Below, one piece after another: positions 8,179 through 50,300 of a stretch of DNA of 64,000 nt (within the stretch, counting starts at the first letter, position 1; every line of letters begins with the position of its first letter). The notes under the pieces are model-generated. The model had not been told where the DNA came from and made no database searches. It saw only the letters and a list, made by a program, of their open reading frames with translations. The stretch comes from Yuukianura sp. NJ FZ-2021 (taxonomy: Eukaryota): positions 1,426,001-1,490,000 of the forward strand of contig CM102286.1 of NCBI GenBank assembly GCA_046563655.1, given 5' to 3'. The translations under genes were made by a program, and so were the position numbers.

Positions 8179-10469
8179 ATGCCTGCCGGCGGTCAACCAA
8201 GGTTCACATACCATCGTGATTGCCAACAAGCAACATTTGAACCAGTCCAAGGATCAGTAGTCACTGGTAAAATATATAATTTTAATTATTATATTTAGTT
8301 TTAAATAATTTGAATTAATTTGTAAAAGTTACTGCCTCCTGAATTCAAATTTTACTTGGCAGGTCAAATTCCAAAGTGGTTGGAAGGAACGCTGATTCGA
8401 AATGGCCCCGGAATTCAAACGGTGGGAACAGACCGGTTTCAACATTATTTCGATGGACTAGCAATCCTCCATCGTTTTCACATTCACGATGGAAAAGTAA
8501 ATAACAATAAATATAATAATTAAAATAATACTAAAACTAATTTGTTATGAGTTAATTGTTATGTTTAATTAAAATTCAAGGTAACTTACAGCAGTAGACC
8601 ACTCGAAAGTGATTCGTACAAAAACAACATGGCGGCTGGAAAAATTGTGAGCACCGAGTTCGGAACTTTGGGAGAAGCCGACCCATGTGACACTCTGTTT
8701 TCAAAGTAGGAGGATTCAAAATTTCAAAAATTACTACAAAAGCAAAGAAGAAATTTTTAATATTTTTAGCAAAAAATGCTTGTTTGAATAGATTCAAAAG
8801 TATGTTTACTGGCGAAGAGAAGAAGGAATCATGTGACCTGATAACGGACAACTGCAATGTAAACGTTTGTTATTTTGGAGATCAACTCTACGCCATGACA
8901 GAAACTATGTATGTTCGGCGCATCAAACCAGAAAATTTAAAAACTATAGGCGGGAAAACAAATTTGAAAAATTATTTGCCAATTGAGCAAACCTTGGCGC
9001 ATCCTCACATCCTTCCGGATGGAACTGTCATTACAGTTGGCACAAACTACAGACACAAGGCTGGTCCACACTACACCATCGTTAGTATTCCGCCTAGTTT
9101 TAATTCAGATCGTGAGTTTTTCAAATTATGAAATTATGAAATTTTATCAAATCCAAAAGCTCTTTCTCTAAAGTTATTTTTTCAATCCCGAGGTCCCGTT
9201 TTCGAAAATTCGGAAATTATAGCTGAGATTCCGTGTCGCTGGAAGTTGTACCCGTGCTACTCACATTCTTTTTCATTGGCGGGTGACAAAGTCGTTTTTG
9301 TTGAGCAGCCATTTTGTATTAGTGTTCCGAAGTTTATTTTGTCCCAGTTCAAGCGTGCTCCATTTCAGTCAATGCTTCAATGGTGGCCTAATCAAACTGC
9401 AAGTTCAAAATTTTAGCTAAAAAAAAACCCTTTTGGTTTATAACACTAATAACACAATTCGGAAAATCAAATTTTGAAACGTTTGCTTTTGAAATTTCTA
9501 GACCAGAATTCATGTGGTGTCGACTATAGATGGAACGCGACACAAAATTGTTTACGAAGCCAAAAGTTTGTTCATGTTTCATCAAGTCAATGCTTACGAA
9601 GATGACGGACATATCGTTCTCGACCTCTCTGCTTACAACGACGACAACGTTAGCGTTTCGTTTTTAATTTTTTTTTAAACTTTGACAAAATTTTAAGTAA
9701 TTTTTGTTGTCCTTGACAGCTTGTAAAAGCCGCTTTGGAAAATCACAATGTCAATTTCGATATTCGAAATTCCTTCAGACGCTACGTTTTGCCTCTCAAA
9801 ATTCCAAAGGTAAGAGTACAATCATTGTTAAATCTTTGATTCTGGTGACAATACAGTGTTTCCTGCGCAGGATGGGTGCGCAGCTGACCAGAACTTGGTC
9901 AGATTGGAGTCGACTAAGGCACAAGCCAAACTGCGGCCTGGGACGACCAACGTTGTTGACCTCGAGCCCGAGGTCATTCTGAACTCCTTTTTTGAATTAC
10001 CGAAAATCAACTACGAATTCAATGGAAAGAAGTATCGGTATGCCTATGGAGCTTCGTCCATCAACAGTAAACCGGCAGATTCACGATCCCTTATTGAATC
10101 AAATCAAGTAAAATTCATTTAACAAACAAAAAGAAACAATTAAATAGCCCAACGTAATTTTGTATTATGAAGATTTCCAAAATGGATTTGGACCGGCAAG
10201 AAGTGACTTCCTGGACAGCAGGAGAGGAAACGCTCGTGTCCGAACCAGTTTTTGTTCTAAATCCACTTTTAGAAAATCCGGCAGAAGACGATGGCGTTCT
10301 GCTTGTGTCTCTGCTGCATTTGGAAGATGAGAGAAAAGTGACATTGGTCATTCTGGATGCAAAAACTATGGAAGTGGTGAGCAAAGTGGAATTTCAGGCT
10401 GATGGGGCCGTTCCGTCAACGTTACATGGCCAGTGGGCTCATACTGGTCATAAAGTACATAAATACTAA
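8179..10469 (+). CDS. Carotenoid cleavage oxygenase (BCO/NinaB/RPE65 family), copy A, 9 exons
   Basis: [41 protein letters not shown]; four Fe-ligand His ([20 protein letters not shown]); [14 protein letters not shown]...AEDDGVLL. Exons join in frame if intron 5 uses a GC donor at 9399. Confidence 0.9.
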
Positions 10470-10943: not shown

Positions 10944-11897
10944 CTAAACTCGGTTGATTCTGAGATTGAACCTAATACTGTTTTCATCAGTGCTTACCCA
11001 TTGGTAAAAATCGTTTTCGGATGACCGCGGAGAAACTGCCACAAGATTTTTAGTCCCCAAATTTCGAATTTCAAGCGGACCGAAACCCAAGGTCTTCAAA
11101 CTCCAAAATCCATTTTCGCGATTTTTTGCCAAAGTGTTCCCTTGATCGACATACTGTGGGTCATTGGTCAGCATAAGATAATGTTTTGGTGTGGCAGTGT
11201 CCTGGGGAGACTCAAGGTCAGCGTCCACGACAAGCAGCATGTCTGGATACTTCACATGATGAATTGTAACTACCGAGTCGTCGTCATTTACAAGTTTGAA
11301 TATCCACAGCCCATCTTCAAACCATGCCCCACCAAGAGAATATTTCGATTCCCTAAAAGTAAATATTTAAAGAAAATGGAAATCAAGGTTCATTGACAAC
11401 GAAAAGTTAATTTTCTTTAACAGGTTGGATAATATCTCGCTTGTTGACAAAAGAAACGGACAAAACAAAAAATTAGTACCAATCCAAAAATTGGTACCAA
11501 TTCATATGCTACACTTAAAAAAATTGTTTGACGATGCCCTGAAATGAAATTGGGCAATTTTTGGCAAAATCGAAAAAACATGAGTTATTACCCAATCTGT
11601 TAAATAAAATTAACAAATCAATAAATCAAAAGACCTTGATGGAAATTAAAATTTTTTTTTCAAAAATTGTGATATTTCGAAATACCTATTGGCGTGATCA
11701 TCCAATTGAACGAATTTGGCACCAGACTTTGAATAAACGTCTGCGTATGTCAACAAGTTGAAGCCTGAGCGAAAGTTTTCGTGAATTTGGTACTGCGTTT
11801 CCGTCCATAAGTTTGTATTGGGAATTAATTGCTTTCTGCCTTCTCCATTTTGCACAAAGACAAATATAGCCAAAACAATAAAACTGCTCAACGCCAT
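10944..11897 (-). CDS. Unknown secreted protein, ~205 aa, possibly beta-trefoil, copy 1 (exons 11897-11686 and 11352-10944)
   Basis: Hydrophobic signal peptide MALSSFIVLAIFVFVQNGEG. A phase-2 GT-AG intron joins DDHANR|ESKYSLGGAWFEDGLWIFK in frame with the ORF at 10944-11255. A close paralog lies at 12718-13422. Confidence 0.82.
11384..11638. mobile_element. Non-autonomous DNA transposon (MITE), hAT-like, in the intron of secreted gene copy 1
   Basis: Termini CAAGGT...ACCTTG with a perfect 8-bp target-site duplication ATGGAAAT. It is absent from the ~75-nt intron of copy 2. A second family member is at 54203-54466. Confidence 0.85.
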
Positions 11898-12717: not shown

Positions 12718-13422
12718 CTAAACTGCGTTGATTCTAAAGTTGAACGTGCTGCTTTCTTCATTCGTAGTTGTAACCCATTGGTAATAATCATTTTCAGATA
12801 ACCGCGGAGAAACTGCCACAACATTTCCATCTCCCAAATTATGAATTTGGAGCGAATCGTCTTCGTCTTCCCGTGTCCTCAAATCCCAAAATCCATTTTG
12901 ACGATCTCGTGCCAAATCGTTCCCTTGATCAACATATCTTGGGTCATTGGTCAGCATAAGATAATGTTTGGCTGGGACCTTCCCCTGGGGGGAATCAAGG
13001 TCAGCGTCCACGACGAGCAGCAAGTCTGGATACTTCACGTGATGGATTGTTACATATCCCTCGACGTTATTCTCAAGTTTGAATGTCCAGAGTCCATCTT
13101 CAAACCATTCCCCGCCACGAGCATATTTGAACTCCCTAAATGTATATTTTTAAAGAAAGTTAGAAAATTTTGAACATATATTTTTAAAAAATTAAGATTT
13201 TTGGAAATACCTGTCGGCGTGATCGTCCAGTTGAACAAATTTGACACCAGACTTTGGCTTAACGTCTGCGTAGGTCAACAAGTTGAAGCCTGAGCGACGA
13301 TTATCATGAATTTGGTACTGCGTGTCAGTCCATAAGCCTGTACCCAGAATCTGCTCTTTTGCTTCTCCATTTTGTACAAAGACAAAAATGGCCAAAACGA
13401 CAATACTGCCCAACAACGCCAT
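12718..13422 (-). CDS. Unknown secreted protein, ~209 aa, possibly beta-trefoil, copy 2 (exons 13422-13211 and 13135-12718)
   Basis: Signal peptide MALLGSIVVLAIFVFVQNGEA. Same intron position and phase as copy 1. Shared blocks SGFNLLTYADV, WFEDGLW, HHVKYPD.LLVVDADL, KHYLMLTNDP.YVDQGN, VAVSPR.SEND.YQWV. Confidence 0.82.
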
Positions 13423-14166: not shown

Positions 14167-16476
14167 ATGAAACGAAAATTGTTTCAAAATTTTACGAAAT
14201 TTCATAAACTTATGTCTGCCAGATATCGGACAAAGTTCACATACCATCGTGATTGCCAACAAGCAACACTGGAACCAGTACAAGGATCAATAGTCACTGG
14301 TAAAATATAATTTAAATTATAATCCTTATTAGCTTTTTCGTTATAATTTGAATTTAGAAAAGTTAATTGTCTCCTGAATTCAAATTTTGCTTGACAGGTC
14401 AAATTCCAAAGTGGTTGGAGGGAACGCTGATTCGAAATGGCGCCGGAATTCTAACGGTGGGAACAGACCGGTTTCAGCATTTCTTCGATGGATTAGCAAT
14501 CCTCCATCGGTTTCACATTCACGATGGAAAAGTAAATAACAATAAATATAATAATAAAAATAATACTAAAACTAATTTGTTGAGATGAGTTAATTGTTGT
14601 GTTTTATTGAAATTCAAGGTAACTTACAGCAGTAGACCACTCGAAAGCGATTCGTACAAAAAGAACATGGCGGCAGGAAAAATTGTTGTGAGCGAATTCG
14701 GAACTCTGGGAGAGCCTGACTCATGTGAAACCCTGTTTTCAAAGTAAGAGGATTCAAAATTTCAAAAATTGACAAATAAAAAGAAGAAGAAAATTTTAAA
14801 TTTTTTAACAAAAGATGCTTGTTTGAACAGATTCAAAAGTGTGTTTACTGGCGGAGAGAAGCAGGAATCACGGGATACTACAACGGACAACTGCAATGTG
14901 AACGTGTGTTATTTTGGAGATCAACTCTACGCCATGACAGAAACTACGTACGTTCGACGCATCAGTCCAGTAACCTTGAAAACTATAGGCGGGAAAACAA
15001 ATTTGAAAAATTACTTGCCAATTGAACAAGCCTCTGCGCATCCTCATATTCTTCCAGATGGAACTGCTATTACAATGGGCACAAATTACAGACATAAGGG
15101 TGGTCCACACTACACCGTCATCAGTATTCCACCTAGGGTTAATACAGATCGTAAGTTTTCAAAATTATGAAACTCCTTCTTTCGAATTCTAGTTGAAATT
15201 TTGATACTTTTGGTTCTTAAGGTCCGGTTTTCGAAAATTCGAAAGTTGTTGCTGAAATTCCGAGTCGTTGGAAGTTGTATCCTGCCTACTCACATTCTTT
15301 TTCTCTGGCGGGTGACAAAGTCGTTTTTGTTGAGCAGCCATTTTGTTTCAGTTTTCCGAAATACATTCTAAAAAACTTCAAACGTGAACCATTTGAGTCA
15401 CTGTTCCAATGGTGGCCTAATCAAACTGTAAGTTCTCAATTTTAGCTTATACAAAACCGAAATTTATATTCAAAATTTTGAAACGTTCCCTTTTGAATTT
15501 TTTAGACGAGAATTCATGTTGTGTCGACTGTAGATGGAACACGACACAACATTATTTACGAAACGAAGAATTTGTTTATGTTTCATCAAGTCAATGCTTA
15601 CGAACAACATGGACATATCGTCCTCGACCTCTCTGCTTATAACGACGGCAATGTAAGCATTTCGATTCTAGAATTTTTTTTTCAATTTTGATAAAATTTT
15701 GAATAATTTTTTTTGTGTTCTTGACAGCTCGTAAAATCCGTTCTGGGAAATCATAAAGTCGAATGTGATTTTCGAAATTCCTTCAGACGCTATGTTTTGC
15801 CTCTCAAAATTCCAAAGGTAAGAGTACAATCATTGTTAAATTTTTGATTCTGTTGGCACTGAAGTGTTTCCTGCGCAGGATGGCTGCGCAGCTGACCAGA
15901 ACTTGGTCAAATTGGAGTCGGGTAAGGCACAAGCCAAACTGCGGCAGGGCACGACCAACGTAGTTGACCTTGACCCCGAGGTCATCTCGAACTCCCTTTT
16001 TGAATTTCCTAGAATCAATTACGAATTCAATGGAAAGAAGTATCGATTCGCCTATGGAGCTGCTTCCTCTGTCACCAGTCAACAACAAGGTCCACAATCT
16101 CTTCAGGATCCAAATCAAGTAAAATTTTCCAAATTTAAAAAAAAAGGAATTTTATGTCCAACTTTTTTTAATTTCAAAGATTTCCAAAATTGATTTGCAT
16201 CGACAAGAAGTGACTTCCTGGACAGCAGGAGAGGAAACGCTCGTGTCCGAACCAGTTTTTGTTCGAAATCCACTTTTAGAAAATCCGGCCGAAGATGATG
16301 GTGTTCTGCTTGTGTCTCTGCTGCACTTGGAAGATGAGAGGAAAGTGACATTGGTCATTCTGGATGCAAAAACTATGGAAGTTGTTAGCCAAGCGGAATT
16401 CAAGGCTGATGGGGCCGTTCCGTCAACGTTACACGGAAAATGGGCTCAACATGGACATAAAATACACAAATACTAA
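14167..16476 (+). CDS. Carotenoid cleavage oxygenase, copy B, 9 exons (ATG at 14167 or 14212)
   Basis: Same exon structure and motifs as copy A ([45 protein letters not shown]). All donors read GT. Confidence 0.9.
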
Positions 16477-17312: not shown

Positions 17313-19809
17313 ATGCCAGCCAGAGCCCAAACAAAGTTCACCTTCCACCGCGATTGTCAACAAGCAACACTTGAACCGATTCAAGGATCTATAATCACAG
17401 GTAAAACATCGTTTTAAATATGATTCTATATTAACTTTTTTTAATTTAAATTAATTGAATGTCCCAAGGTAATGTCTTCTGAATTCAAATTTTACTTGAC
17501 AGGTCAAATTCCAAAATGGTTGGAGGGAACGCTGATTCGAAATGGCGCCGGAATTCAAACGGTGGGAACAGACCGGTATCACCATTTCTTCGATGGACTA
17601 GCAATCCTCCATCGTTTTCACATTCACGATGGAAAAGTAATTAAACAATAAATATAATAATTAAAACAATACTATAGTTCATTTTTTTATTCTGTGCAGT
17701 TGGTAAAATCAATTGCATTGTCGCTCTTATGGAGATTTTCATTTTTTTGAAAACACAACCACCATGCTGTTTACATGGCGTTTTCCGAAAAATCGAAAAA
17801 CACAATGTTAATCGTCCATAAGGCGATTGGAACAGTCCAACTGCACAGAATAAAAAAATGAACTATAAAACTAATTTGTTATGATGAGTTAATTGTTGTG
17901 TTTAATTAAAATTCAAGGTAACTTACAACAGTAGACCACTCGAAAGTGATTCGTACAAAAAGAACATGGCGGCGGGAAAAATTGTTGTCAGCGAATTCGG
18001 AACTCTGGGAGAGCCTGACCCATGTGACTCTCTATTTTCAAAGTAATTAGAATCAAAATTTCAAAAATTGACAATTCTAAAAAAAAGAAGAAAATTTTAA
18101 ATTTTTTAACAAAAGATGCTTGTTTGAACAGATTCAAAAGTGAGTTTACTGGTGAAGAGAAGCAGGAATCTCGCGACACTCCAACAGACAACTGCAATGT
18201 CAACGTGTGTTATTTTGGGGATCAACTCTACGCCATGACAGAAACTATGTTCGTTCGCCGCATCAGTCCAAAAAGTTTGAAAACTATAGGCGGGAAAACA
18301 AATTTGCAAAATTATTTGCCAATTGAACAAGCCTCTGCACATCCTCATGTTCTCCCTGATGGAACTGTCATCACAATTGGCACAAACTACAGACACATAC
18401 GTGGTCCACACTACACAGTCATCAGCACTCCGCCTACCTTTAATACAGAACGCAAGTTTTTCAAAATTATGAAATTCAAAAAAAGCAAGGTCCAATTTTC
18501 TGAAAAGGTTTTTTCCTTGACTCAGGTCTGGTTTTTGAAAATTCGAAAGTTGTTGCTGAAATTCCGAGTCGTTGGAAATTATACCCTGCGTACATACATT
18601 CATTTTCTTTGGCGGGTGACAAAGTCGTTTTTGTGGAGCAGCCATTTTGTTTTAGTTTTCCGAAATTTTTTTTGAACTTCATCAAGCGTGCACCATTTGA
18701 GTCTATGTTTCAATGGTGGTCTAATCAAACAGTAAGTTCAAGATTTTAGTGAAATCGAAACACAAGTTTTTATATAAAACAATTTTGAAAATCAAATTTT
18801 GAATCGTTGGCTTTTGAATTTTTAGACTAGAATTCATGTAGTGTCGACTGTAGATGAAAAGCGACACAAAATTATTTACGAAACCAAAAATTTGTTTATG
18901 CTACATCAAGTCAATGCTTACGAAGAAGATGGACATATCGTCCTAGACGTTTCTGCTTTCAACGACGGCAATGTAAGCGTAACGTTTCTAATTTTTTTTT
19001 TTAATTTTAAATTTTTTAAAATAAAATTTTATAAAATTTTGAGTAACTTTTGGTGTGCATGATAGTTCGTAAAAGCCGCTCTGGGAAACAACAATGTCGA
19101 ATGTGATATTCGAAATTCCTTCAGACGCTACGTTTTGCCTCTCAAAATTCCAAAGGTAAGAGTACATTGTTAAATTTTTGATTATTGTAGCACTGAAGTG
19201 TTTCCTGCGCAGGATGGCTGCGCAGCTGACCAGAATTTGGTCCAATTGGAGTCGAGTAAGGCACAAGCCAAACTGCGACATGGCACAACCAACGTGGTTG
19301 ACCTTGACCCCGAGGTCATCCTGAACTCCTTTTTTGAATTCCCCAAAATCAACTATGAATTCAATGGAAAAAAGTATCGCTATGCCTATGGAGCTTCGTT
19401 CATCCACAGTCAACCTCTAGATTCTCGAGCACTTTTGGATCCAAATCAAGTAAAATTTGAAAATTCAAAAAAAAGACAAAAAAAAAACAATATTTTTTTT
19501 TTAATTTCAAAGATTTCCAAAGTTGATTTGGATCGACGAGAGGTGATTTCATGGGCAGCAGGAGAGGGGGAGGTTGTTTCCGAACCCATTTTTGTTCTAA
19601 ATCCACTTTTAGAAAATCCGGCGGAAGACGATGGCGTTCTGCTTGTGTCTCTGCTGCATTTGGAAGATGAGAGAAAAGTGACATTGGTCATTCTGGATGC
19701 AAAAACTATGGAAGTGGTGAGCAAAGTTGAATTCAAGGCTGTTGGCGTCGTTTCATCAACGTTGCATGGAAAATGGGCTCAATTTGGACATAAAATACAC
19801 AAATACTAA
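17313..19809 (+). CDS. Carotenoid cleavage oxygenase, copy C, 9 exons
   Basis: Same exon structure and motifs ([35 protein letters not shown]). Intron 4 donor is GC at 18452. A MITE sits in intron 2. Confidence 0.88.
17675..17865. mobile_element. MITE with TA target-site duplication (Tc1/mariner-like) in intron 2 of oxygenase C
   Basis: Perfect ~29-bp terminal inverted repeats TAGTTCATTTTTTTATTCTGTGCAGTTGG ... CCAACTGCACAGAATAAAAAAATGAACTA flanked by TA. The empty site (aatacTAaaactaatttg) is present in copies A and B. Confidence 0.9.
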
Positions 19810-20061: not shown

Positions 20062-21383
20062 TTAGTCCACAAGTTTAACGAAACCGGCCGATTGATGCCG
20101 AGTGGAGCTTGACAAAAAGCGATTGTTTCCATCAATCACTGCTTCCGAAATATCCAAAAATTTAACTAACTGTGGATCGTGTGCAAACTTTTCAAGAAGT
20201 GAATCACGCAAAACCAAAAAATCATCAATTTCGTCACTGATGAGGACACACATTTGGTCAACGGCAGTCTCCAGCGGAATGCCTTTTTCCACCACTTTGA
20301 AAACAACCAAGTTGTCCATTTCGTTTTTTCCAAATTCGTTTTGCATTCCAAGTAAATCATTCGTGAGTCCACAAATGGAATTGACGAGATCCAGCAGTCT
20401 CCGAATACTTGAACAGTTTTTGATCCTTCCAGGAAGATCAGTTTGTCCACTCTCCAAAATCCAGCTAGTGATTACACAGATGTCAAAGTAGTTTAAAATC
20501 ATGCGATAGTTTCGATAACTTTCTTCTTGACATGATCCATCAATTGGACAAGCAGCGTTGCGCACCATGGCATTAAAGTATCTTTGAAGGGAAAATTCAA
20601 TTTGTCCGCCCATTTTATCTCGATATCCAGGATAAAGTGATTCAAACTCGAGATAAGAATCTTGAAAAGCGTGAAATAAGAAACCATAAATTGGAAATTG
20701 TGGAACATCTACAAAGATTTGGCGGTGATTTCGAATGAGCTGAATTAATCCGATGGTGGCAGTTTGAATCACGGTGGCAGGGACTGTTAAAACGGCCTCT
20801 TCCATGGCATTATCCAAAATATAGTAAGTGTAGCCCATTTTTAGCGCCATTTTCATTCGAATACTCTCCATTTCCTGGAATGGATACACCACAGCTTGAA
20901 ACTGGGTCAGAACTTCTTCCATTCCACTGAAAAGTTTTGAATTTGAGTTGTTCCCGATGAACCTTTCAACCCAATCCTTCAGAAATTTCTTCATAATTTC
21001 CATTTCTTGAGAAGTGATGACCTTGGCGCGTTCAAATCGTGGTTGAATTCGAGGAAATTGACCTTTGACATGAACAGTTCCAAAGTGTTGGTTCGTAAGT
21101 TTTCCAAAATCAAATTCAACTCTTCCCGCCAGCGGCTTTTTACAGAATTCGTTGGACACTAGAAACCCAAAAGTACAATTTTTGACATTGTGTTCGGAGA
21201 ACTTTTAAAAATGTTATCCTTACCTTGTATTGCTGCACTTTTGTTAAAATTTTGTTCAAACAAGTTTGGTTTTGAAAGTGGAATTTGATACTTTCCAGTA
21301 CTCCGCATAGTGAAATTTGAGTAAGCAAAATGCTTCAAATTGGTCAAACAATTCAACAAAGTGAATCGCTTCATTTGGTTCAT
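20062..21383 (-). CDS. Class I terpene cyclase-like protein (microbial-type, single alpha domain), copy 1; exons 21383-21224 and 21158-20062
   Basis: Asp-rich motif variant YYILDNAMEE; pyrophosphate-sensor Arg (YRNYR) about 48 aa before the NSE-type motif NDLLGMQNE; downstream DNLV; C-terminal RH at the RY position. A 65-nt GT-AG intron joins AAIQ|VSNEFC in frame. Confidence 0.8.
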
Positions 21384-21848
21384 ATTTTAGAACTTTTTTA
21401 GTGCTAAATATGTTCACTTTGACTTTGATGCTGCTTACAGTTGGACTTTGTTTAAAAAACTGAAAATGGAACTTATGATTTAGGACAACAACCTTCTTCC
21501 TTCACTTATCTAAGGCTTATAATATTTTTCAACTTCAATTATTCTTCTTTCAAAACCCTAAACTTAGCTAGTTTTTTTTTTGTACAACCCCTATTTCAAA
21601 AAAAGAGTTTGCTTAAAAAAAAGATGCGTTCAAGGAACCTAACGACTTTTTTGTAACTTCGAAGCCCTTGACTTTGAATTTTAAAGATTGAAGTGAATTT
21701 CCAAAGGAAATTTGAATAAAGACATTTCAAATTCTATTTTGGGATAGGTTAGCGTCGTATATTTCAAAACTAATTTAAATTTGGCGCTTGCGTCAATAAG
21801 CAAGAAATGTTTAATTTATTAATAACAACTTATTTTATTACTAATAAA

Positions 21849-22190
21849 TTTTTTTTTTTTTTTTTTTTTAGTTTTCTGAGAATTTTTATTTCACAGTCAC
21901 CTGCCAAAGGCAGGTTGAGAAAAGAAGTAGGATTTAAATTAGATTATAATATGAATAATTCGTAAAGATCTTTTCCTGAGGGTAAGGTTCCCAAGATTGA
22001 GCAGGAATTTCCGCGTTGAACAGCTAGGCTTATTCGTTGTAGGAAGAAGGTCGTGGCTCGTTTATCTCCAGATGTTTCTGACAGCCGATGTCCGATTTGT
22101 TTTAGTAGACGAAGACCTTCGGATCCGAATACACCTGATGTCTCGACGGCAATGATGGATACCACGAAGCGAGATTCTAGGTCACGATAG
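21849..22190 (-). mobile_element. 5'-truncated non-LTR retrotransposon (CRE-like, restriction-like endonuclease C-terminus) with poly(A) tail
   Basis: Peptide YRDL...IAVETSGVFG...FLQRISLAVQRGNS.SILGT, then AATAAA (21890-21885) and a 21-nt poly(A) (T-run 21849-21869). Candidate TSD TAATAAA at 21842-21848 and 22191-22197. Confidence 0.8.
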
Positions 22191-22218
22191 TAATAAATAA
22201 TAAATAATTATTCTTACT

Positions 22219-23453
22219 TTAGTCAATTATTTTAATCAAACCGTTAGACTTATGCCGGTCAGATGCTGCAAAATATCGATTGTTTCCATCAATCACTGCT
22301 TCTAAAATATCCAAAAATTTAACTAACTGTGGATCGTAAGCAAATTTATGAAGAAGTGAATCACGCAAAACCAAAAAATCATCAATTTCGTCGCTGAGGA
22401 GAACACACATTTGGTCAACGGCAGTCTCCAGCGGAGTGCCTTTTTCAACCACTTTGAAAATAACCAAGTTGTCCATTTCGTTTTTTCCAAATTCGTTTTG
22501 CATTCCAAGTAAATCATTCGTGAGTCCACAAATGGAATTGACGAGATCCAGCAGTCTCCGAATACTTGAGCAGTTTTTGATTCTTCCAGGAAGATCAGTT
22601 TGTCCACTCTCCAGAATCCAGCTTATGATGGCACTGGTATCATAGTATTCCAATGCAACACGGTAATTTCTGTAAGATTCTTCCTGAGAAGTACCGTCAA
22701 TTGGCGACACAGCATAGCGGAGTATTGCATTCAAGTATCGCTCAATTGAAAATTCAAATTGCCCCATTTTGTTTTGGTATCCAGGATAAAGTTTTTCAAA
22801 ATCTTGATGTAAATCCAGTAAGGATTGGAACAAAAAACTGTAAATTGGAAATGCTGGAACATCTTCGTAAATATGAGCTGGGTTTCGAATTAATTGAAGG
22901 ATTCCTTGCGTGGCAGATTCAAGCACTGTGGCAGAAACTGTTTCAATGGCATTTTCCATTGCATTATCTAAAATCCACGACCAGTAGACCGATTTTAGCG
23001 CCATTTTGAGCTCGGTGCTTTTAATCTCCGGAAATGGATACAAAAGAGGAACGAAAATTGCCGCCGTTTCTACCATGCCGTCGAAGAATTTGGAATTTGT
23101 TCGATTTTGAATGAATTTGTCAGTCCAACGACCCAAGTATGACTGCAAGTACTGCTGTTCTACTGGGTTGACCTCGTAACGTTGATACCTTCCTTGTATC
23201 CGAGGAAATTGACCTTTGACATGAACCGTCCCAAAACGTGGGTTTGTTAGGCGCCCAAAGTCAAATTCAACTTTTCCTGCCAACTGCCTTCTGCAAAACT
23301 CATTTGCAACTGAAAATAATAAAAACCAATTTTTTTTAATACAGTACCCAGGATTGATTACAACAATGCCAAAAATAACGTACATATAAAGTTATAAAAA
23401 TTAAAACACTTTTTTAAAGTTACTTTTTTTTAACCTTTTCTTGCCACCGACAT
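22219..23453 (-). CDS. Class I terpene cyclase-like protein, copy 2; main exon 23309-22219, tentative short first exon 23453-23435
   Basis: SWILDNAMEN, YRNYR, NDLLGMQNE, DNLV, YFAASDRH. The acceptor TTTTCAG|TTGCAAAT is at the same position as in copy 1. The first exon (MSVARK) is uncertain. Confidence 0.8.
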
Positions 23454-24092
23454 TCCTTTACACTTTACGTTTTGTATTAAAACACATGTGGTTGATTAGT
23501 TTTCATTTTTCGGATGTACTCCAGTTGTGGAATCTATTTTTATTGAGAACAATATCCAAGCTTTTCAAACATGTGGTTGATTTTTCAAAAAAAAAAAAAA
23601 TGAAATCGTTTTCTTCAGAATAGCATGGTTTAAATATGACCAAAAATGCACCAAGCAGTGATCATTTTAGATAAGTTAATGACTTTAGTAATTAAGAAAA
23701 TTCATTTGCTAATTACCCTGAACACAAAATCATTAACGCCAACAATTACTTTTGGGTTCGATATTATTGTATCAAGGAAGGATTCCAGATAGAAAATGCG
23801 GCTTACAAGTTCCTTAGATCCAGTTAGTTAACTTACGATTAACTTACGATTAGTTAACGTTTGATTAATTCGTCATGAATTTTAGAATTCTTAAATAAAT
23901 TAAAAGTGTTGATTTTTTTCCCCAGGAAAATCCATATCTGACAAAATGACAGTTACAGAAGAGAAGCTTTTAGTCCAACTCAAAAACATGTGGAATGGAA
24001 TCTTAGAAACGTAAATAAACAACGTTGAAAACTCATAGTAACCGGCTTTTATACCACATTCGAAATCGTAGGTAGGAAGGAAGAGATCAATC

Positions 24093-44341: not shown

Positions 44342-47300
44342 GTGCTACTGATGCTGGCAGCACATTGGTGACTCCTCTGCCAAGTTCAATTGCGACTGGC
44401 GAGCAACCAACTGAAGAAAATGGATCTGTCCAAAGTCAAACCGTTTTCCCCGCTTCCTCACTTTCTCCAAATGGATTTGATAGCCTCTCACCTCCACCTT
44501 CTAAATTCCTACCTAATGGTCAATTACTTCTTCACAAGGGGGTAATGGCCCCACCGAGATCCACCATCCAGCCCCACCATCCTCCAATTTCACCATCATC
44601 ATTAGACCCACCAAAATCTCTTGTGAAATCCCATTCAGACGGAATCTCCCGCCAACCATCTTCAAAAGCCTCCACGCCAATCAACTTTCAAATCTTCCAA
44701 ACATCAATCCAGCCTACCTTATCCCCTTCCTCTGCGCATACGCAAAACATTATTAGCCACACTGCGCAACCTTCAGAAATGTCAAAGGTCAACGGAGGTC
44801 AAGGGTCAACGACCCTCAAATGGTCCACGACAACGACGACTATTCCTCTGATTCGTCAGAAAACGCTGCCGACTCCACACAGTTGGGCAGAAGTGGCTCA
44901 GCGAACGCAGTTCAGAACGGGTGACCTGTCGAATCAACTTCTTTATCCAGAGTGGTTTGGATCTTTCCAAGGTCAGGATTTCAAAATTTTGAAAAACAAT
45001 CTTCATTTTTTTTCTTTTTGAAAAAATTTTTTTTGGTGATGTTGCCGGGAAGTGTAAAATTTCTAGACATTAGGTAGCTTGCATTTCAAATCATTTATAG
45101 AAAGTATAGAATTTCACACCCGATTTGTTACGGCTCCTGCGATTGGTCGATTTCAAATCTGTGACGTCACTTTCCAAACTTTTTTGATTTATGGCATTTG
45201 TGTACAGTTTATAAATTTTGGAAAAGTTTAAAAGTGACGTCACTTCTCACAGCAAGTTCTATACTTTCTATAAATTGTATAACTGATTTATAAGGCAAAC
45301 TTCTTATTATTTGTTGTAGAAGGTGAGAAATTGATTGAAGATGGGAACAGAACTGAAGCAGCGGGAGATGGTTTGGATAAAAAAGGCGGGCGTTTTGAAT
45401 CTGGCGCTCCCTTGACACAGGGAGAGCGTGAAGAAGAGAGTCCTTGGCGGGAAGTAAGCTACTTCCAGAACTCCGACACTCCAGCGTTCCGTCAAGCCGT
45501 GGGTAGTTCTAATGAAGACGTTCCAGAGCGAGAGATGATGATGGCTGGAGAAATGCCCGGGAAAAACTCTCCAGGGGCCCTTCCTGGAAGGGAGCCGAGA
45601 CAGCCGAAGGGCCCTCCGTCACTCTATGCTGCCACTTCGGCCCTTGACGAGAGTGCTGGACTCGCAGACGTCATCTCCAGAGGCCGCATTGACAGCGTCA
45701 TGTATGTCTATTTCGGAGACAAGTTTAATGACTACCACAAAGAGCAGATTGCTGGAAGGATCATCCAAGTAAGCAAACAGAACTAGCCTACTTCTTACTT
45801 TTGGTCAACAGCAATTGAGTCAACTGCAAAAAGTCAACACTTTGTGTGCCTCAGATTTCTCAATTTACACAAGTTACCGCTTCTATACGAAACTTTGCAC
45901 TCTTTTTGTTGACTGAGTTGCAAGTTGACCAATTTGCTTTCTCATGGTTTCATTTTAGTTAATGGTCTCTCCTGCTGTTTCTGAAATGGAAAGATCTGGT
46001 GGTGTTTATGTCTGTGAAGCCCATTTTACACTCGGCGCTTACGTGTCGTCTAAACACATAAAAATTCTCATCTTCCCCCAAAATTTATGTCTCGTTTAAG
46101 AAATTTCGGATTTTGAAATTCAAATTTCCAGCCAAAATTGGACAGTCGCTGGAACTTTATTTACTAAACTAGTAAATAACGTTAGTGCTTAATGAAATAG
46201 AACTTTCAGGAGCGCATGCGCAGACAGATTCAGCTGGAAGTACATTAGTAACATCCCAGTCACATTTGTAGTCAAACTCTTCCGTAGTACAACAAAAATG
46301 AGTAGAACAATTAACATTCAGATTTAAAGTCGTAGATTCCCGGTTCATAAAAACCGCCATTTCTGAATCCGAATCTTTGGATTTCAAAATCAAGCATTTT
46401 CCCGGGGCTTGAACCAAGTTCACTTCATCGCAGTTTCGCACCGTCGCATTCCTTCCGACCAAACTACTGGCTCTCGTAAAATGCTTGTACACAAAGTACT
46501 TCTTAGGGTAGATCAAGTGACCTTGATAATCTCCCCACAGAAGAGACTCCCCAGACGAGAATTCCGTGTAGGCAAACCAGAAGTAGTACCGTTCTACGCA
46601 TGTCGAACCGACAAAGTTGATGATGTTCCGAGCAAAGTCAAGACCTTCCTTGACCTGAGTGCTTTCTGCATAATGAAATGTGCTGCACACTTCGGTCATC
46701 CAGCGACGTCGGTTGCCCCAGGCAGTCGTTTTATGTACGAATGGATCGTAGTAGGCCAGTAAGAAGTTGGGTGAGGTCGGACGGAGGTCCAAAGCATATG
46801 CGTGTGTCAAGATAACGTCGCATGCGTTGGCACACGAGTAACCAGTGACAGGATTGACATAGTGCATGAAGAAGTCGGAGAGCCAGAGATGCGATGCCTC
46901 GGGGCAGAAGGAGGTCAAGGGGTCATTCCACTTGGTGACCATCGTACAGAGTTGGTCCGGGGTCATGTTGGTGTGATCCCATGCGGCAAAGGCATTGTCA
47001 GGCTCGTTGACTGGACTGACACTCTCTACAGTGAGTCCATATGTGTCCTGGATGAGATTTGTTATGTTTTTGATGAAATAGTAAAAGTCGGTTTCAGCAC
47101 TCGGCAACAGCTGATGCGTTACATTGTTTTTCATGCGGTAAGGGGCGGTCCATATGGACGAAATTAGGGTAATGTTAGGGTATTTACTGGTGTTTGAAAA
47201 CTCTTCCAACACGGCTTCCCATGCCCAGTCACAGTTCGATGTTGAACATTTTATCGTATACTCGTTTGGTGCTGGTGAAAAGTTCGGTAGGTAGTTGATA

Positions 47301-50300
47301 CGGTAATGACTAAAATTTAAAAAAAAATGCTTTTTTTTAGTTCCCGCCAATACTAGCACACCCAAAAAAAGAAAGAAAAAATTCAAACCAAAAACGTTTT
47401 ACCGTAATTCCAGGTCATTGTACAGCAAATCCAGAATTGTCTGGACGAATGACACATTTGTCCCATCCATGTGTGTTGGCGAACCGACGTAAATCCCGAA
47501 ACCGTCAAACGGCATGTCACAACTTTTTGCAAGCTGGAAACCCGATAAAATCAAAATTCCCGCCAACAACTTTGGCATAGTTAACATCATTTTGTAACAC
47601 TAGTGGTGACACTTTCTTTCCAAAAATTAACACTTCGGGCTTAAATTTGTCAATGTGGAACTAATTACCATGAACTGATGAGGTTTAGAAATTGGACACT
47701 TTTGCATAAGCCCACTGTTGAGTCTATTTATAGTTGAATAACCTTTAATGGCACTGATAAACATAATGATCTTGTCAGATTTAAAACTATACACTACAAA
47801 TTTTATGTTGAAACAATCACAAACATCTGGTGATCAAAATCAAAGCTTTGGACACAAAAATTATAGTCCATGGCATGGATTTCGAAAAATTTTCAAGTGT
47901 TTTATTAGATTAAAAGGCACAAATATTGGACAATTGAGTCCACAATTGGACAAAATACGTCAATTGCGGACGGTTTTGAAATTCTCCAGAAACGCCTCCG
48001 TTTTGAAACTGAAACGCAAACACTCAACAAAGGTCAATTCAAAGTCACACATTGCACTATCTAACATGCGATTAACGTTGTTGACGATCCACTTTAACAA
48101 TTCAGAATTTCAAAATTTATGACCTAAATTTTAAAGTTGTAAAGTGAAATTATTCAAGTTAGATCAATAACTGAATGTTTGTTTTTTTTTGACAAAGTTT
48201 GTTTTTAAATTGAGACTAATTTTGCAAATTGTTTATGTTTAGACTGGAATGTTGTAGAAGAGAGGTTGTTGAACTTGGTTGAATGAACTAGATTTTAGAC
48301 TAGTAGTTTTAGTAACAGTAGCTTAAGTTGAAATAGAAACAGTTTGTTATAAAGTAGTGGTGGACTGTAATGGTTTATTGATCACTTTCTCTTCTTCCTC
48401 GAACATCTTCCTAGTCCCCCACACTTTCTCTCAGTTTACCCCACAAACGAAGGAATCAATACCACCGTCCGACCACTTCACAATCACTTTTACTCAACAA
48501 CATCCAAGAAAAGACAACTTGAAGGAAGGTTACGCAACATTCCTAAATGTTACTTCTTGACTGACTCCCCACTAATCAGACAGTGACGACAGACTTCTTG
48601 TTTTTGGTTCCAAGCATAACCTAACCTTAGCATAAGCTTCACTTCTTAGCAAAAACATAACATGGCAATTTTTTTATGAAAGAAAGTAACACGACACAAA
48701 AAAAACAACAACAAAGTTTAGTCCAGAGATTGCAGCAGAATTTTTTTTAGTAAGCATAAACATTCAGTTGAGATCCAAGCAGTTGTTTTTTGCAAAAGTT
48801 TTGGCGCGTTTTTTGCTAAAGTAAGAAAAGATTTTGAAAGCATTTGTTTTATTTTAGAGCAGAGCTGGCGGGAATTGAAGGCTGGGACCCCAGTGGGTTC
48901 CTTTGTATTCATCGCCTCATGATTACTTTTCTGCGTTAAAGAAAAGCATGGGGACTTGGTTTAATTAGATTTCGCTTTGGGAAGGAAGGCCTTGATTAGA
49001 TTAACGCTTACTTAACGAACACAAAATCTTAAGCCTTCGCCACACCACCGACTACAAAATACTACGGTTTCTGCGCATCTCTTTTGAGAAAAGACAAAAC
49101 TTGCCCTAGATTCACTCAAATCTCAGTCTACTTTCGACACAAAACTGCCAAAGAATTTGCCAAAACTTTTTTTTTCATGCTGATAAACTTTGTTAGTACT
49201 GAAAGACAAAATCTATTTCTGGAAATGTTTCTAGAAATTTTGGACTCCAAAAAAAAGTTTCCCTGATAAGCAGAAACTCGTATTCAATGAATTTTTGAAA
49301 GGTTTGTAAAAAACCTGCTAAATCTGATGTTAAAAATTGAAAATTTTTGGTTGAAAACAGATTTTGCAAATAGATTTTTAAAAAACAGTTTTCTAAAATG
49401 CCTGACGTCAAATTTTTTTGAATTTTAGGCAGTTGGAGGCGTTGTGGCAGCAATTGCGCATGTGCTGACAGTTTTAGGAGCTGCAAAATCTATTCGTAAA
49501 GGTCAACTCAACATTCTGCCGGTTCAATTGCACATTGGATTTGCTCTGCTCGTGTCAAATCTCCTCATGCTGTTGGCTGTTCATGTAAGAATTTTCAAAA
49601 TTTTAAGTGTTTTTGAAACATGCGGATTTTTTTTTACCATTTCAGACAAAGTACTCAAAGGCCAGTTATTTCTTAGCTTTCGAGACAATTTCAATTTTTG
49701 TTTGAAACTTGGGGTTTTAAAAGAACGAGTGCTTTTTGGGGGTTTTCATTGTGTTTTGAGTGTTTTTCTTGGGAAAAACACTATAACACTTCAAGTCAAG
49801 GTGTTTTTCTTTTCCATTTCTCTTATTCTTTATCCCCCCATTGTTTTCCTTTCATTTTCTCCAAAAGCCTGTCATTCGCTTTGCCTAAAATTCTCCTTTG
49901 TTCTCCCTAATGAACCCAAGACTACGGAAAATGGTTTTCTTCCTTTGATTTTTCTGTTTTACTTTTTCTGTTTCAGCGGGAAACTCAATTAGGAAAAAAG
50001 CATTGAACTTTTGCAGAACCTAGGCCAAAAAACGACTTTTTCTTTGAATCCCATTGGCTTTGTGCATTAAATTAAAGTTTGGCGCCCATTGACTTATTGC
50101 ATCCCAATTTATTGCCAATTCCAGAAGAGGGGATTTGTTCTCTGCCAAATTCCAGGGAGAAGGAAGAGAGAAAAATGTGACTGGGGAAAGGAGCAGGGTG
50201 ATTTCTAATGAAGATTCCGTTTGTAATTTCCGTCAGTGACTGAACTTTTTTTCCGCCGAAGGATAATAGTGGGAAATTGGGAAGTTTAAATGGAGAAAAG

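What the first reader, a model, noticed from the sequence alone, without database searches (positions are those of the whole stretch)
20062..23453. Intron-bearing microbial-type terpene cyclases with non-canonical catalytic motifs (DNAME, NDLLGMQNE, RH)
Seen: both paralogs replace DDxxD with DNAME, have Gly at the Ser/Thr position of the NSE triad, and end in F/Y-xxxxx-RH instead of WxxxxxRY. The sensor Arg and the post-NSE NLV are retained. The whole catalytic domain lies in one exon with a single 5' spliceosomal intron, whereas neighbouring genes have many introns. Inference: a horizontally acquired or sporadically retained cyclase domesticated in an animal genome, not contamination. The shared motif changes may indicate unusual chemistry or substrate length.
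Basis: partly seen in the sequence, partly recalled or inferred. Interest (0 to 1): 0.78.

Follow-up and report, generated by a model that had tools for sequence, protein, structure and literature searches.

The report
Springtail terpene synthase pair, altered motif
Two neighbouring, intact genes in what is most likely a springtail genome encode microbial-type terpene synthases of a family already known from springtails, and they differ from all relatives found by having Asn in place of the second Asp of the metal-binding motif.

Summary
Two minus-strand genes (20062-21308/21383 and 22219-23453) encode class I terpene synthases. Pfam PF19086 scores E 2e-11 and 4e-11. The AlphaFold2 model has pLDDT 93. 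VIA-align gives Z 31 to selinadiene synthase. Each gene has one short phase-1 GT-AG intron near the 5' end, and both lie among multi-exon animal genes of the same GC3.

The host is most likely a springtail. The KAT2 exon's only two hits are Orchesella (62%) and Folsomia (53%), and the pair falls in a supported clade with a Folsomia candida protein. Microbial-type terpene synthases with introns are already published for Collembola (2024, 2026), so the category is not new.

- **NSE-triad Gly:** common in the family (37 of 68 relatives).
- **RH:** marks the closest relatives (5 of 67).
- **Second-position Asn (DNAME):** unique (0 of 55 relatives).

The Asn lies outside a gene-conversion tract. 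Both paralogs keep it despite dS of about 1.4, with dN/dS 0.22, so these are not pseudogenes.

I think they are most likely active Mg-dependent cyclases; a fungal DNxxD enzyme is active. Activity, substrate and expression were not tested.

The parts
20062..21158 (-). TPS gene 1, exon 2. It holds the whole catalytic domain, and the stop codon is at 20062-20064.
   Evidence: ORF and translation; Pfam PF19086 E 1.9e-11; acceptor AG at 21160-21159.
21159..21223 (-). TPS gene 1 intron: 65 nt, GT...AG, phase 1.
   Evidence: Read from the sequence. The position and phase match the intron of relatives L001 and L002. No RNA evidence.
21224..21383 (-). TPS gene 1, exon 1. The start is uncertain: in-frame ATGs lie at 21383, 21374 and 21308.
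   Evidence: ORF 21159-21386 and the sequence. Exon 2 has no in-frame ATG before the conserved N-terminal hairpin.
22219..23309 (-). TPS gene 2, exon 2. It holds the whole catalytic domain, and the stop codon is at 22219-22221.
   Evidence: ORF and translation; Pfam PF19086 E 4e-11; AlphaFold2 pLDDT 93; VIA-align Z 30.9 to 4okm.
23310..23434 (-). TPS gene 2 intron: 125 nt, GT...AG, phase 1.
   Evidence: Read from the sequence. An unspliced alternative start (in-frame ATG near 23385) is not excluded.
23435..23453 (-). TPS gene 2, exon 1: 19 nt, with the ATG at 23453.
   Evidence: Read from the sequence.
20800..20814 (-). DNAME in gene 1 (codons GAT AAT GCC ATG GAA). This is the Asp-rich motif with Asn at position 2.
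   Evidence: It aligns to DDxxD/E of relatives and of solved synthases.
22954..22968 (-). DNAME in gene 2 (codons GAT AAT GCA ATG GAA).
   Evidence: None of the 55 relatives that cover the column has Asn there.
20335..20361 (-). NDLLGMQNE in gene 1. This is the NSE-type triad with Gly in the middle and Asn where relatives have Lys or Arg.
22492..22518 (-). NDLLGMQNE in gene 2.
20095..20100 (-). RH pair in gene 1, in place of RY.
22252..22257 (-). RH pair in gene 2.
20130..20481 (-). Gene-conversion tract in gene 1 (approximate ends). It pairs with 22290-22650 in gene 2. DNA identity is 52-59 of 60 per window here, against 28-46 of 60 elsewhere in the CDS.
   Evidence: Sliding identity; dS 0.19 in the tract against 1.42 upstream of it.
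22290..22650 (-). Gene-conversion tract in gene 2 (approximate ends).
21944..22207 (-). Repeat or retroelement-like ORF fragment between the two genes. It is not part of the synthases.
   Evidence: ORF; no Pfam hit. I named it a retroelement from recall only.

Best explanation
The region holds two tandem, intact, selectively maintained genes for alpha-domain class I (microbial-type) terpene synthases. They belong to the terpene synthase family already described in springtails (Collembola), and the window is most likely from a springtail genome.

Each gene is one large catalytic exon plus a small 5' exon. A short phase-1 intron separates the two exons, and the closest relatives share it. After an old duplication the two copies diverged under purifying selection. 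A tract of about 350 bp around the NSE-triad helix was later homogenised by gene conversion.

Inferred mechanism: the proteins bind a prenyl diphosphate with a Mg2+ cluster held by the first Asp and the Glu of DNAME and by the Asn and Glu of NDLLGMQNE. Water would stand in at the Gly position. The sensor Arg and the Arg of RH bind the diphosphate. The enzymes ionise the substrate and cyclise the carbocation.

Three diphosphate-site residues differ from the family norm: Asp to Asn at position 2, Lys to Asn before the triad Glu, and Tyr to His. These would soften the charge network around the diphosphate without removing a primary metal ligand. I therefore expect activity, possibly with altered kinetics, metal preference or product spectrum.

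Shown: the gene structure as read from sequence, family and fold membership, the uniqueness of the Asn, and purifying selection. Inferred: splicing, expression, catalysis and substrate.
For: **Family and fold**
- Pfam PF19086 scores above its cut-off for both genes.
- The AlphaFold2 model has pLDDT 93.0 and pTM 0.92.
- All listed Foldseek rows, from 7zrn_A (E 1.6e-08, TM 0.69/0.82), are microbial class I terpene synthases.
- VIA-align gives Z 30.9, rmsd 2.6 A over 309 residues to selinadiene synthase 4okm.
- A profile of the family matches T-muurolol synthase at E 5.8e-69, with DDxxD aligned to the DN site.

**Relatives**
- 79 hits at E<=1e-3 among 1.84 billion representatives; the best is 34% identical at E 3.4e-66.
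- The named hits are Folsomia candida proteins.
- In a 44-row tree the pair sits in a 9-row clade (SH-aLRT 97) with a Folsomia protein. A separate 12-row clade (SH-aLRT 100) holds P0045, which is identical to a bacterial MAG ORF.

**Host**
- The KAT2 exon's only two hits are Orchesella cincta at 62% and Folsomia candida at 53%.
- Animal genes flank the pair.
- GC3 is equal to that of the neighbours.

**Intron**
- GT-AG and phase 1 in both genes, and also in L001 and L002.

**Selection**
- dN/dS is 0.22 over the 221 N-terminal codons, with dS 1.42.
- DNAME lies in that diverged part, outside the conversion tract, and is kept in both copies.

**Residues**
- Kept: first Asp, last Glu, triad Asn and Glu, sensor Arg, and the Arg of RH.
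- Changed: Asn at position 2 (0 of 55 relatives) and Asn for Lys (2 of 67).
- Family-typical: Gly (37 of 68) and His (5 of 67).

**Precedent**
- The fungal IoSTS9, with DNXXD, makes alpha-cadinol in vivo and in vitro (PMC13647348, passages read).
- Collembolan synthases AfTPS2, FcTPS2, FcTPS5 and ScTC1, 2, 3 and 5 are active in vitro (PMC11665903 and PMC13638087, passages read).
Against: - No activity, expression or splicing data exist for these genes.
- The combination of three altered diphosphate-site residues was seen in no relative, and its effect is unknown.
- In epi-isozizaene synthase the residues equivalent to the changed Lys and Tyr hydrogen-bond the diphosphate (PMC10992375, passage read). 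Binding could therefore be weakened.
- Canonical motifs do not guarantee activity: ScTC4 and BcTPS4 gave no product (PMC13638087 and PMC11665903, passages). Motif reasoning is weak in both directions.
- Purifying selection shows a function, not which function.
- The springtail assignment rests on one neighbouring exon with only two hits, plus the position of the synthases in the tree.
- The tree used the quick method, has SH-aLRT support only, and is rooted at the midpoint.
Confidence: 0.68

Rival explanations
1. The pair has lost cyclase activity. It is kept for another role, such as binding a prenyl diphosphate or terpenoid as a carrier, sensor or regulator.
For: Three residues of the diphosphate and metal site differ from the family norm. 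Position-2 Asn occurs in 0 of 55 relatives, Asn for Lys in 2 of 67, and His for Tyr in 5 of 67. Purifying selection (dN/dS 0.22) fits any conserved function.
Against: All primary metal ligands and both diphosphate-binding Arg residues are kept. A natural DNXXD synthase is active (PMC13647348, passages).
Confidence: 0.17
2. The enzymes are active, but on a non-canonical substrate such as a C-methylated prenyl diphosphate. The remodelled diphosphate site would be part of that change.
For: The closest relative found is on locus L001. It shares the intron and is 34% identical. About 1.4 kb away, on the opposite strand, lies an intron-bearing ORF that matches geranyl diphosphate 2-C-methyltransferase (NCBIfam NF041943, E 4.8e-101, 338 bits, profile 5-272 of 272). 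That ORF is 50-55% identical to actinobacterial enzymes.
Against: No such methyltransferase lies in the 64-kb window (tblastn). The L001 synthase itself has canonical DD. The 338-bit score is below NCBIfam's equivalog cut-off of 400. This is one adjacency on one metagenome contig. The second related contig, L002, shows no methyltransferase in the 1.3 kb upstream that it holds.
Confidence: 0.1
3. The genes are decaying pseudogenes, or microbial contamination or an assembly chimera.
For: No RNA evidence. The canonical DDxxD is missing.
Against: Both reading frames are open over about 365 codons, with dN/dS 0.22. Both genes have GT-AG introns. Animal genes lie on both sides of the pair on one contig. 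GC3 equals that of the neighbours. Contigs of four DNA runs from two studies lie on the stretch. A scan of prokaryote genomes with peptide patterns from gene 2 found no relative.
Confidence: 0.04

Closest known systems
Collembolan microbial-type (canonical) terpene synthases: AfTPS2, FcTPS2 and FcTPS5 (PMC11665903, 2024), and ScTC1-5 plus 277 genes in 21 of 26 springtail genomes (PMC13638087, 2026)
   Same: Alpha-domain-only class I fold. Pfam PF19086. Nuclear animal genes, often with introns (152 of 277 in the 2026 survey). The window pair groups with a Folsomia candida protein. The host is most likely a springtail.
   Different: Only 23-26% identical to the named Folsomia proteins. DNAME instead of DDxxD/E, Asn instead of Lys before the triad Glu, and RH instead of RY. 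Both published surveys checked candidates for the DDxxD motif, and the 2026 one also for NSE and RY (PMC11665903 methods passage; PMC13638087 SI passage). Genes like these may therefore have been set aside. I could not see their sequence sets.
Unnamed metagenome proteins P0003 (locus L001), the L002 ORF, P0004 and P0005
   Same: The nearest sequences found: 34-36% identity, E 3.4e-66 to 9.5e-41. L001 and L002 share the phase-1 intern-position intron just upstream of the conserved N-terminal hairpin. All have Gly in the triad. P0003 and P0005 have RH. P0004 has Asn before the triad Glu.
   Different: All have DD at the Asp-rich motif. L001 also carries a GPP-methyltransferase-like neighbour, which the window lacks.
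Bacterial class I sesquiterpene and diterpene synthases with solved structures (selinadiene synthase 4okm, 1-epi-cubenol synthase 9hqb, T-muurolol synthase 9hqd, pentalenene synthase, epi-isozizaene synthase)
   Same: Same fold (Z 28-31 over about 300 residues). Same motif positions in the profile alignment.
   Different: Sequence identity is 13-18%. The single-sequence match to PDB is at best E 0.017. The bacterial proteins have canonical DDxxD, NSE with Ser, Lys before the Glu, and RY. Their genes have no introns.
IoSTS9 of Inonotus obliquus (fungal sesquiterpene synthase with DNXXD)
   Same: A natural Asn at position 2 of the Asp-rich motif in an enzyme shown to be active (alpha-cadinol and germacrene D-4-ol; PMC13647348, passages read).
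   Different: It is a fungal enzyme from an unrelated lineage, and I did not compare its sequence here. Nothing is known of its Lys and Tyr positions.

Membership tests
Class I (microbial-type, alpha-domain) terpene synthase, Pfam PF19086 | Sequence match to the family model above the curated cut-off | tested here: met
   44.5 and 43.5 bits against a cut-off of 23.7.
Class I (microbial-type, alpha-domain) terpene synthase, Pfam PF19086 | Isoprenoid synthase alpha-helical fold | tested here: met
   pLDDT 93. All listed Foldseek rows are terpene synthases. VIA-align Z 30.9, 309 residues aligned, rmsd 2.6 A to 4okm.
Class I (microbial-type, alpha-domain) terpene synthase, Pfam PF19086 | Asp-rich motif DDxx(D/E): first Asp and last acidic residue present | tested here: met
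   D and E of DNAME align to D1 and to D/E5 of the motif.
Class I (microbial-type, alpha-domain) terpene synthase, Pfam PF19086 | Second Asp of the Asp-rich motif | tested here: not met
   Asn in both paralogs. Of 55 relatives, 52 have Asp, 2 Glu, 1 Ser and 0 Asn. An active natural exception exists (IoSTS9, PMC13647348). This lowers certainty about catalysis, not about homology.
Class I (microbial-type, alpha-domain) terpene synthase, Pfam PF19086 | NSE/DTE triad (N/D)Dxx(S/T)xxxE | tested here: inconclusive
   The Asn and Glu are present and the middle residue is Gly. Gly is the majority state in this family (37 of 68). That Gly is tolerated in other synthases is recalled, not tested here.
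Class I (microbial-type, alpha-domain) terpene synthase, Pfam PF19086 | Diphosphate sensor Arg and RY pair | tested here: inconclusive
   The sensor Arg is present (48 of 57 relatives have Arg). The Arg of the pair is present, but Tyr is replaced by His, as in 5 of 67 relatives.
Class I (microbial-type, alpha-domain) terpene synthase, Pfam PF19086 | Mg2+-dependent conversion of a prenyl diphosphate | not testable with these tools
   Needs an enzyme assay.
Collembolan terpene synthase clade | Groups with known springtail synthases rather than bacterial ones | tested here: met
   A 9-row clade (SH-aLRT 97) contains Folsomia P0009. The clade holding bacterial P0045 is separate. I did not have the published 277-gene set.
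Collembolan terpene synthase clade | Encoded in a springtail nuclear genome | tested here: inconclusive
   The only two hits of the KAT2 exon are springtails, at 62% and 53%. Animal neighbours are present. Only one gene was tested, and no whole genome is held.
Insect IDS-derived (FPPS/GGPPS-like) terpene synthases | Polyprenyl synthase domain (PF00348) | tested here: not met
   No such Pfam hit at E up to 1. The top structural matches are terpene cyclases.
2-methylisoborneol-type pair (GPP methyltransferase plus synthase) | GPP 2-C-methyltransferase gene next to the synthase | tested here: not met
   No tblastn hit of the L001 methyltransferase in the window. The rest of the genome could not be searched.

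The most novel reading that the evidence does not exclude
The pair represents a remodelled diphosphate site within the springtail terpene synthase family. Three residues change together: Asp to Asn at position 2, Lys to Asn before the triad Glu, and Tyr to His. This would change the metal stoichiometry or the substrate, for example towards C-methylated prenyl diphosphates. The nearest relative's contig carries an intron-bearing, actinobacterial-type GPP 2-C-methyltransferase gene, which hints that some soil animals encode a complete 2-methyl-terpenoid (C11) pathway.
Probability: 0.1. Interest if true: 0.7.

Novelty: new member of a known kind. Interest (0 to 1): 0.3.

Why it matters
Springtail terpene synthases were recognised only in 2024-2026, and few have been assayed. 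This pair shows that the family contains members under purifying selection that fail the DDxxD filter both published surveys applied (one also checked NSE and RY). Gene counts and chemical diversity may therefore be underestimated.

The pair is also a natural experiment on the second Asp of the Asp-rich motif. The Asn has been kept in two copies across a synonymous divergence of about 1.4.

A side lead came up along the way. An intron-bearing GPP methyltransferase-like gene lies beside the closest relative on a metagenome contig. If confirmed in an animal genome, it would point to animal-encoded homoterpene biosynthesis.

Tried and rejected
- **Word-indexed homologue search with gene 2:** no hit at E<=0.001 among 1795 candidates. 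The exhaustive search then found 79.
- **Whole-genome search:** no genome is held for this window. Other synthase copies or a methyltransferase elsewhere in the genome could not be sought.
- **RNA evidence:** no RNA holder listed. Expression and splicing remain untested.
- **Laying contigs of four DNA runs:** the contigs are short (a few hundred bases), so none bridges a synthase gene to a neighbouring gene. Depth cannot be used to rank genes. One contig in each of three runs of one sample joins 21765 to 23594, skipping gene 2. At 85% likeness this may instead be a diverged allele, a paralogous locus or a repeat artefact.
- **Earlier findings of this scan:** nothing by place, by sequence or by words.
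- **Related-locus scan with the 47-row alignment:** I repeated it with the single protein P0003.
- **Cluster names for 20 relatives:** only the Folsomia clusters carry informative names. A taxon-labelled phylogeny against fungal, amoebal, coral, mite and dipteran synthases was therefore not possible. The tree uses 40 of the 79 hits plus two locus ORFs. It leaves out fragments under about 290 aa and the long proteins P0038, P0044, P0046, P0053 and P0072.
- **Literature search for DNxxD, DNxxE, DNxxxD and DNxxxE:** 3 papers, of which one is relevant.
- **Supplement of PMC13638087 (docx):** contains neither DNAME nor NDLLGMQNE, and only the ScTC1-5 sequences.
- **Supplement of PMC11665903:** a PDF that could not be read.
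- **Considered and rejected:** an IDS-type insect synthase (no PF00348 hit), contamination, and pseudogenes (see the rival explanations).
Full report
**What is there**

On the minus strand lie two stop-to-stop ORFs, 20062-21204 (380 aa) and 22219-23391 (390 aa). They are 67% identical, 249 of 373 residues.
- Both match Pfam PF19086 (Terpene_syn_C_2) above its gathering score, at E 1.9e-11 and 4e-11. Neither gives a polyprenyl-synthase hit at E up to 1.
- An AlphaFold2 model of the gene 2 catalytic exon, built on a 47-row alignment, has mean pLDDT 93.0 and pTM 0.92.
- All listed Foldseek rows against the PDB are bacterial or fungal class I terpene synthases.
- VIA-align gives Z 30.9 over 309 residues at 2.6 A to selinadiene synthase 4okm. 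The first 21 rows are all terpene synthases at Z 29-31, and two red-algal N-prenyltransferases of the same fold appear lower in the list.

**Gene structure**

- Gene 2 has an ATG at 23453, a 19-nt first exon, and a GT...AG intron at 23434-23310. Exon 2 starts at 23309 in phase 1.
- Gene 1 has its first exon ending at 21224 and a GT...AG intron at 21223-21159, also phase 1. Its exon 2 holds no in-frame ATG before the conserved N-terminus, so the upstream exon is required. In-frame ATGs lie at 21383, 21374 and 21308.
- The nearest relatives, on metagenome loci L001 and L002, have a phase-1 GT-AG intron within two residues of the same position. The intron is therefore older than this pair.
- I have no RNA evidence. 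An unspliced start for gene 2, from an in-frame ATG near 23385, is not excluded.

**Host and context**

- The window carries a Src-like tyrosine kinase, KAT2 with the PCAF_N domain, three RPE65-like genes, an LCMT2/kelch gene, a NUDT12-like gene and a secretin-type 7TM receptor.
- KAT2 maps as 8 tblastn pieces over 7077-3899, so the neighbours are multi-exon.
- GC3 of the synthase genes (0.38 and 0.37) equals that of the neighbours (0.38-0.39).
- The KAT2 exon's only two hits at E<=1e-10 are Orchesella cincta (62%) and Folsomia candida (53%). I take the host to be a springtail, on this one gene plus the synthase tree.
- No other synthase copy lies in the window.

**Relatives**

- The word-indexed search found nothing.
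- The exhaustive search of 1.84 billion representatives found 79 proteins at E<=1e-3, 21 at E<=1e-10 and 5 at E<=1e-30. The best is 34% identical at E 3.4e-66.
- Of the 20 hits whose clusters I looked up, the only informative names are Folsomia candida proteins. The rest are unnamed or carry generic labels, and lie mostly on short metagenome or Logan contigs.
- I built a quick-method IQ-TREE of 44 rows: 40 of the 79 hits, the two L001/L002 ORFs and the window pair. Fragments and five long proteins were left out. The pair falls in a 9-row clade (SH-aLRT 97) with Folsomia P0009, L001, L002, P0004, P0007, P0008 and P0010.
- A separate 12-row clade (SH-aLRT 100) holds P0045, which is identical to an ORF of a Proteobacteria MAG.
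- A scan of one genome per prokaryote species with peptide patterns from gene 2 confirmed no relative.

**The motifs**

I aligned 76 relatives and counted each position.

| Position | Window pair | Relatives covering the column |
|---|---|---|
| Asp-rich motif, position 2 | Asn | 52 Asp, 2 Glu, 1 Ser, 0 Asn (of 55) |
| NSE triad, middle residue | Gly | 37 Gly (of 68) |
| Residue before the triad Glu | Asn | 52 Lys, 10 Arg, 2 Asn (of 67) |
| RY pair, second residue | His | 50 Tyr, 5 His (of 67) |

- The His-bearing relatives are the closest hits: P0003, P0005, P0006, P0013 and P0032.
- The first Asp, the last Glu of DNAME, the triad Asn and Glu, the sensor Arg and the Arg of RH are all kept.
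- A profile of the family aligns the DN site with the DDxxD of solved bacterial enzymes.
Gly and RH are family or subclade traits. The Lys-to-Asn change was missed.
- A review passage states that in epi-isozizaene synthase the diphosphate is hydrogen-bonded by R194, K247, R338 and Y339 (PMC10992375). Assuming an ungapped alignment and a 21-residue tag offset, those positions correspond to the sensor Arg (kept), the changed Lys, the kept Arg and the changed Tyr.

**Evolution of the pair**

- DNA identity is 28-46 of 60 per window over most of the CDS. It rises to 52-59 of 60 between about 20130-20481 and 22290-22650, and the flanks do not align. That pattern indicates a gene-conversion tract around the triad helix.
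- By Nei-Gojobori, the 221 codons upstream of the tract give dN 0.313, dS 1.417 and a ratio of 0.22. The tract gives dS 0.19.
- DNAME lies in the diverged part, with the same GAT AAT codons in both genes.
- The Asn therefore predates an old duplication, and both copies have kept it under purifying selection. This argues against pseudogenes.

**What is already known**

- Canonical terpene synthase genes were reported in Collembola in 2024, in Allacma fusca and Folsomia candida, and three enzymes were active (PMC11665903, abstract and passages).
- A 2026 study found 277 genes in 21 of 26 springtail genomes, and 152 of them have introns. They form their own clade, and four of five Sinella enzymes were active (PMC13638087; abstract, section 2.1, passages, and the SI docx searched).
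- Both surveys checked candidates for the DDxxD motif, and the 2026 one also for NSE and RY (PMC11665903 methods passage; SI passage). I could not see their sequence sets, so the window's genes or their orthologues may or may not be among them.
- A fungal enzyme with DNXXD, IoSTS9, is active in vivo and in vitro (PMC13647348, passages; found through).

**Verdict**

- This is a new member pair of a known kind: animal (springtail) microbial-type terpene synthases.
- The Asn at position 2 is unique among the 55 relatives that cover it. Together with two rarer changes it gives a combination of diphosphate-site residues seen in no relative.
- I think the pair is most likely catalytically active. 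A conserved non-catalytic role and an altered substrate are the main rivals.

**Side lead**

- On L001, about 1.4 kb from the closest relative and on the opposite strand, lies an ORF that matches geranyl diphosphate 2-C-methyltransferase. The NCBIfam NF041943 match is E 4.8e-101 and 338 bits, over profile positions 5-272 of 272, but it is below the 400-bit cut-off.
- The ORF is 50-55% identical to actinobacterial enzymes. It has an N-terminal hydrophobic extension and an apparent GT-AG intron of its own. The contig's GC is 0.39.
- The window has no such gene.
- This is one contig of unknown origin and needs checking in assembled animal genomes.

Noticed in passing
L001:369-1406 (-), with the synthase at L001:2902-4005 (+): The metagenome contig that encodes the closest relative of the window's synthases also carries an ORF like geranyl diphosphate 2-C-methyltransferase, on the opposite strand. 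The NCBIfam NF041943 match is E 4.8e-101 and 338 bits, below the 400-bit cut-off. The ORF is 50-55% identical to actinobacterial enzymes. It has an N-terminal hydrophobic extension and an apparent 5' GT-AG intron, and the contig's GC is 0.39. This may be a eukaryote-encoded pair of the 2-methylisoborneol type.
   Followed up: partly
window 21765 to 23594: One contig in each of three DNA runs of one sample joins these two points, skipping 1828 bases that hold gene 2 and the repeat fragment. This may be a presence/absence polymorphism, a diverged allele or a paralogous locus. The contigs are about 90% alike, so it may also be an artefact.
   Followed up: no
window 20130-20481 and 22290-22650: A gene-conversion tract of about 350 bp between the two paralogs covers the triad helix. 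It is 87-98% identical at the DNA level, inside genes that are otherwise 47-77% identical.
   Followed up: yes
window 23277-23200 (gene 2 residues about 12-37 of the exon-2 model) and the last residues, 359-362: The model predicts an N-terminal beta-hairpin (the GKVEFDF...HVKGQFPR region) and a C-terminal strand. The hairpin motif is conserved in the non-bacterial clades. It is absent from most of the 12 rows that fall in the clade with bacterial P0045. Structural alignments to solved enzymes start at model residues 8-35, so it is unclear whether this element is new.
   Followed up: partly
window 46169-47398 (-): A 409-aa single-exon ORF has no Pfam or NCBIfam hit. It resembles glycoside hydrolase family 30 by protein-language-model features (score 0.95, 198 of 256 shared features, and all ten best family-bearing hits in the same clan). 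The PDB match is weak (E 0.47, O-glycosyl hydrolase). It may be another microbial-type gene in this animal genome.
   Followed up: partly
window 8691-9131, 14748-16476, 18028-19809 (+): Three tandem RPE65-like (carotenoid cleavage oxygenase) paralogs lie directly beside the synthase pair. Whether this juxtaposition of isoprenoid-related genes has any functional meaning is unknown.
   Followed up: no
window 10944-11366 and 12718-13149 (-): Two paralogous ORFs of about 140 aa lie between the RPE65-like copies. They have no Pfam hit, and their features are weakly like ricin-type beta-trefoil lectins (score 0.96, but recognition is below the tool's trust level).
   Followed up: partly
window 21944-22207 (-): An 87-aa ORF fragment lies between the two synthase genes. 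It sits in the bins with the highest summed contig depth in all four runs, which suggests a dispersed repeat. I called it retroelement-like from recall only, and it has no Pfam hit.
   Followed up: no
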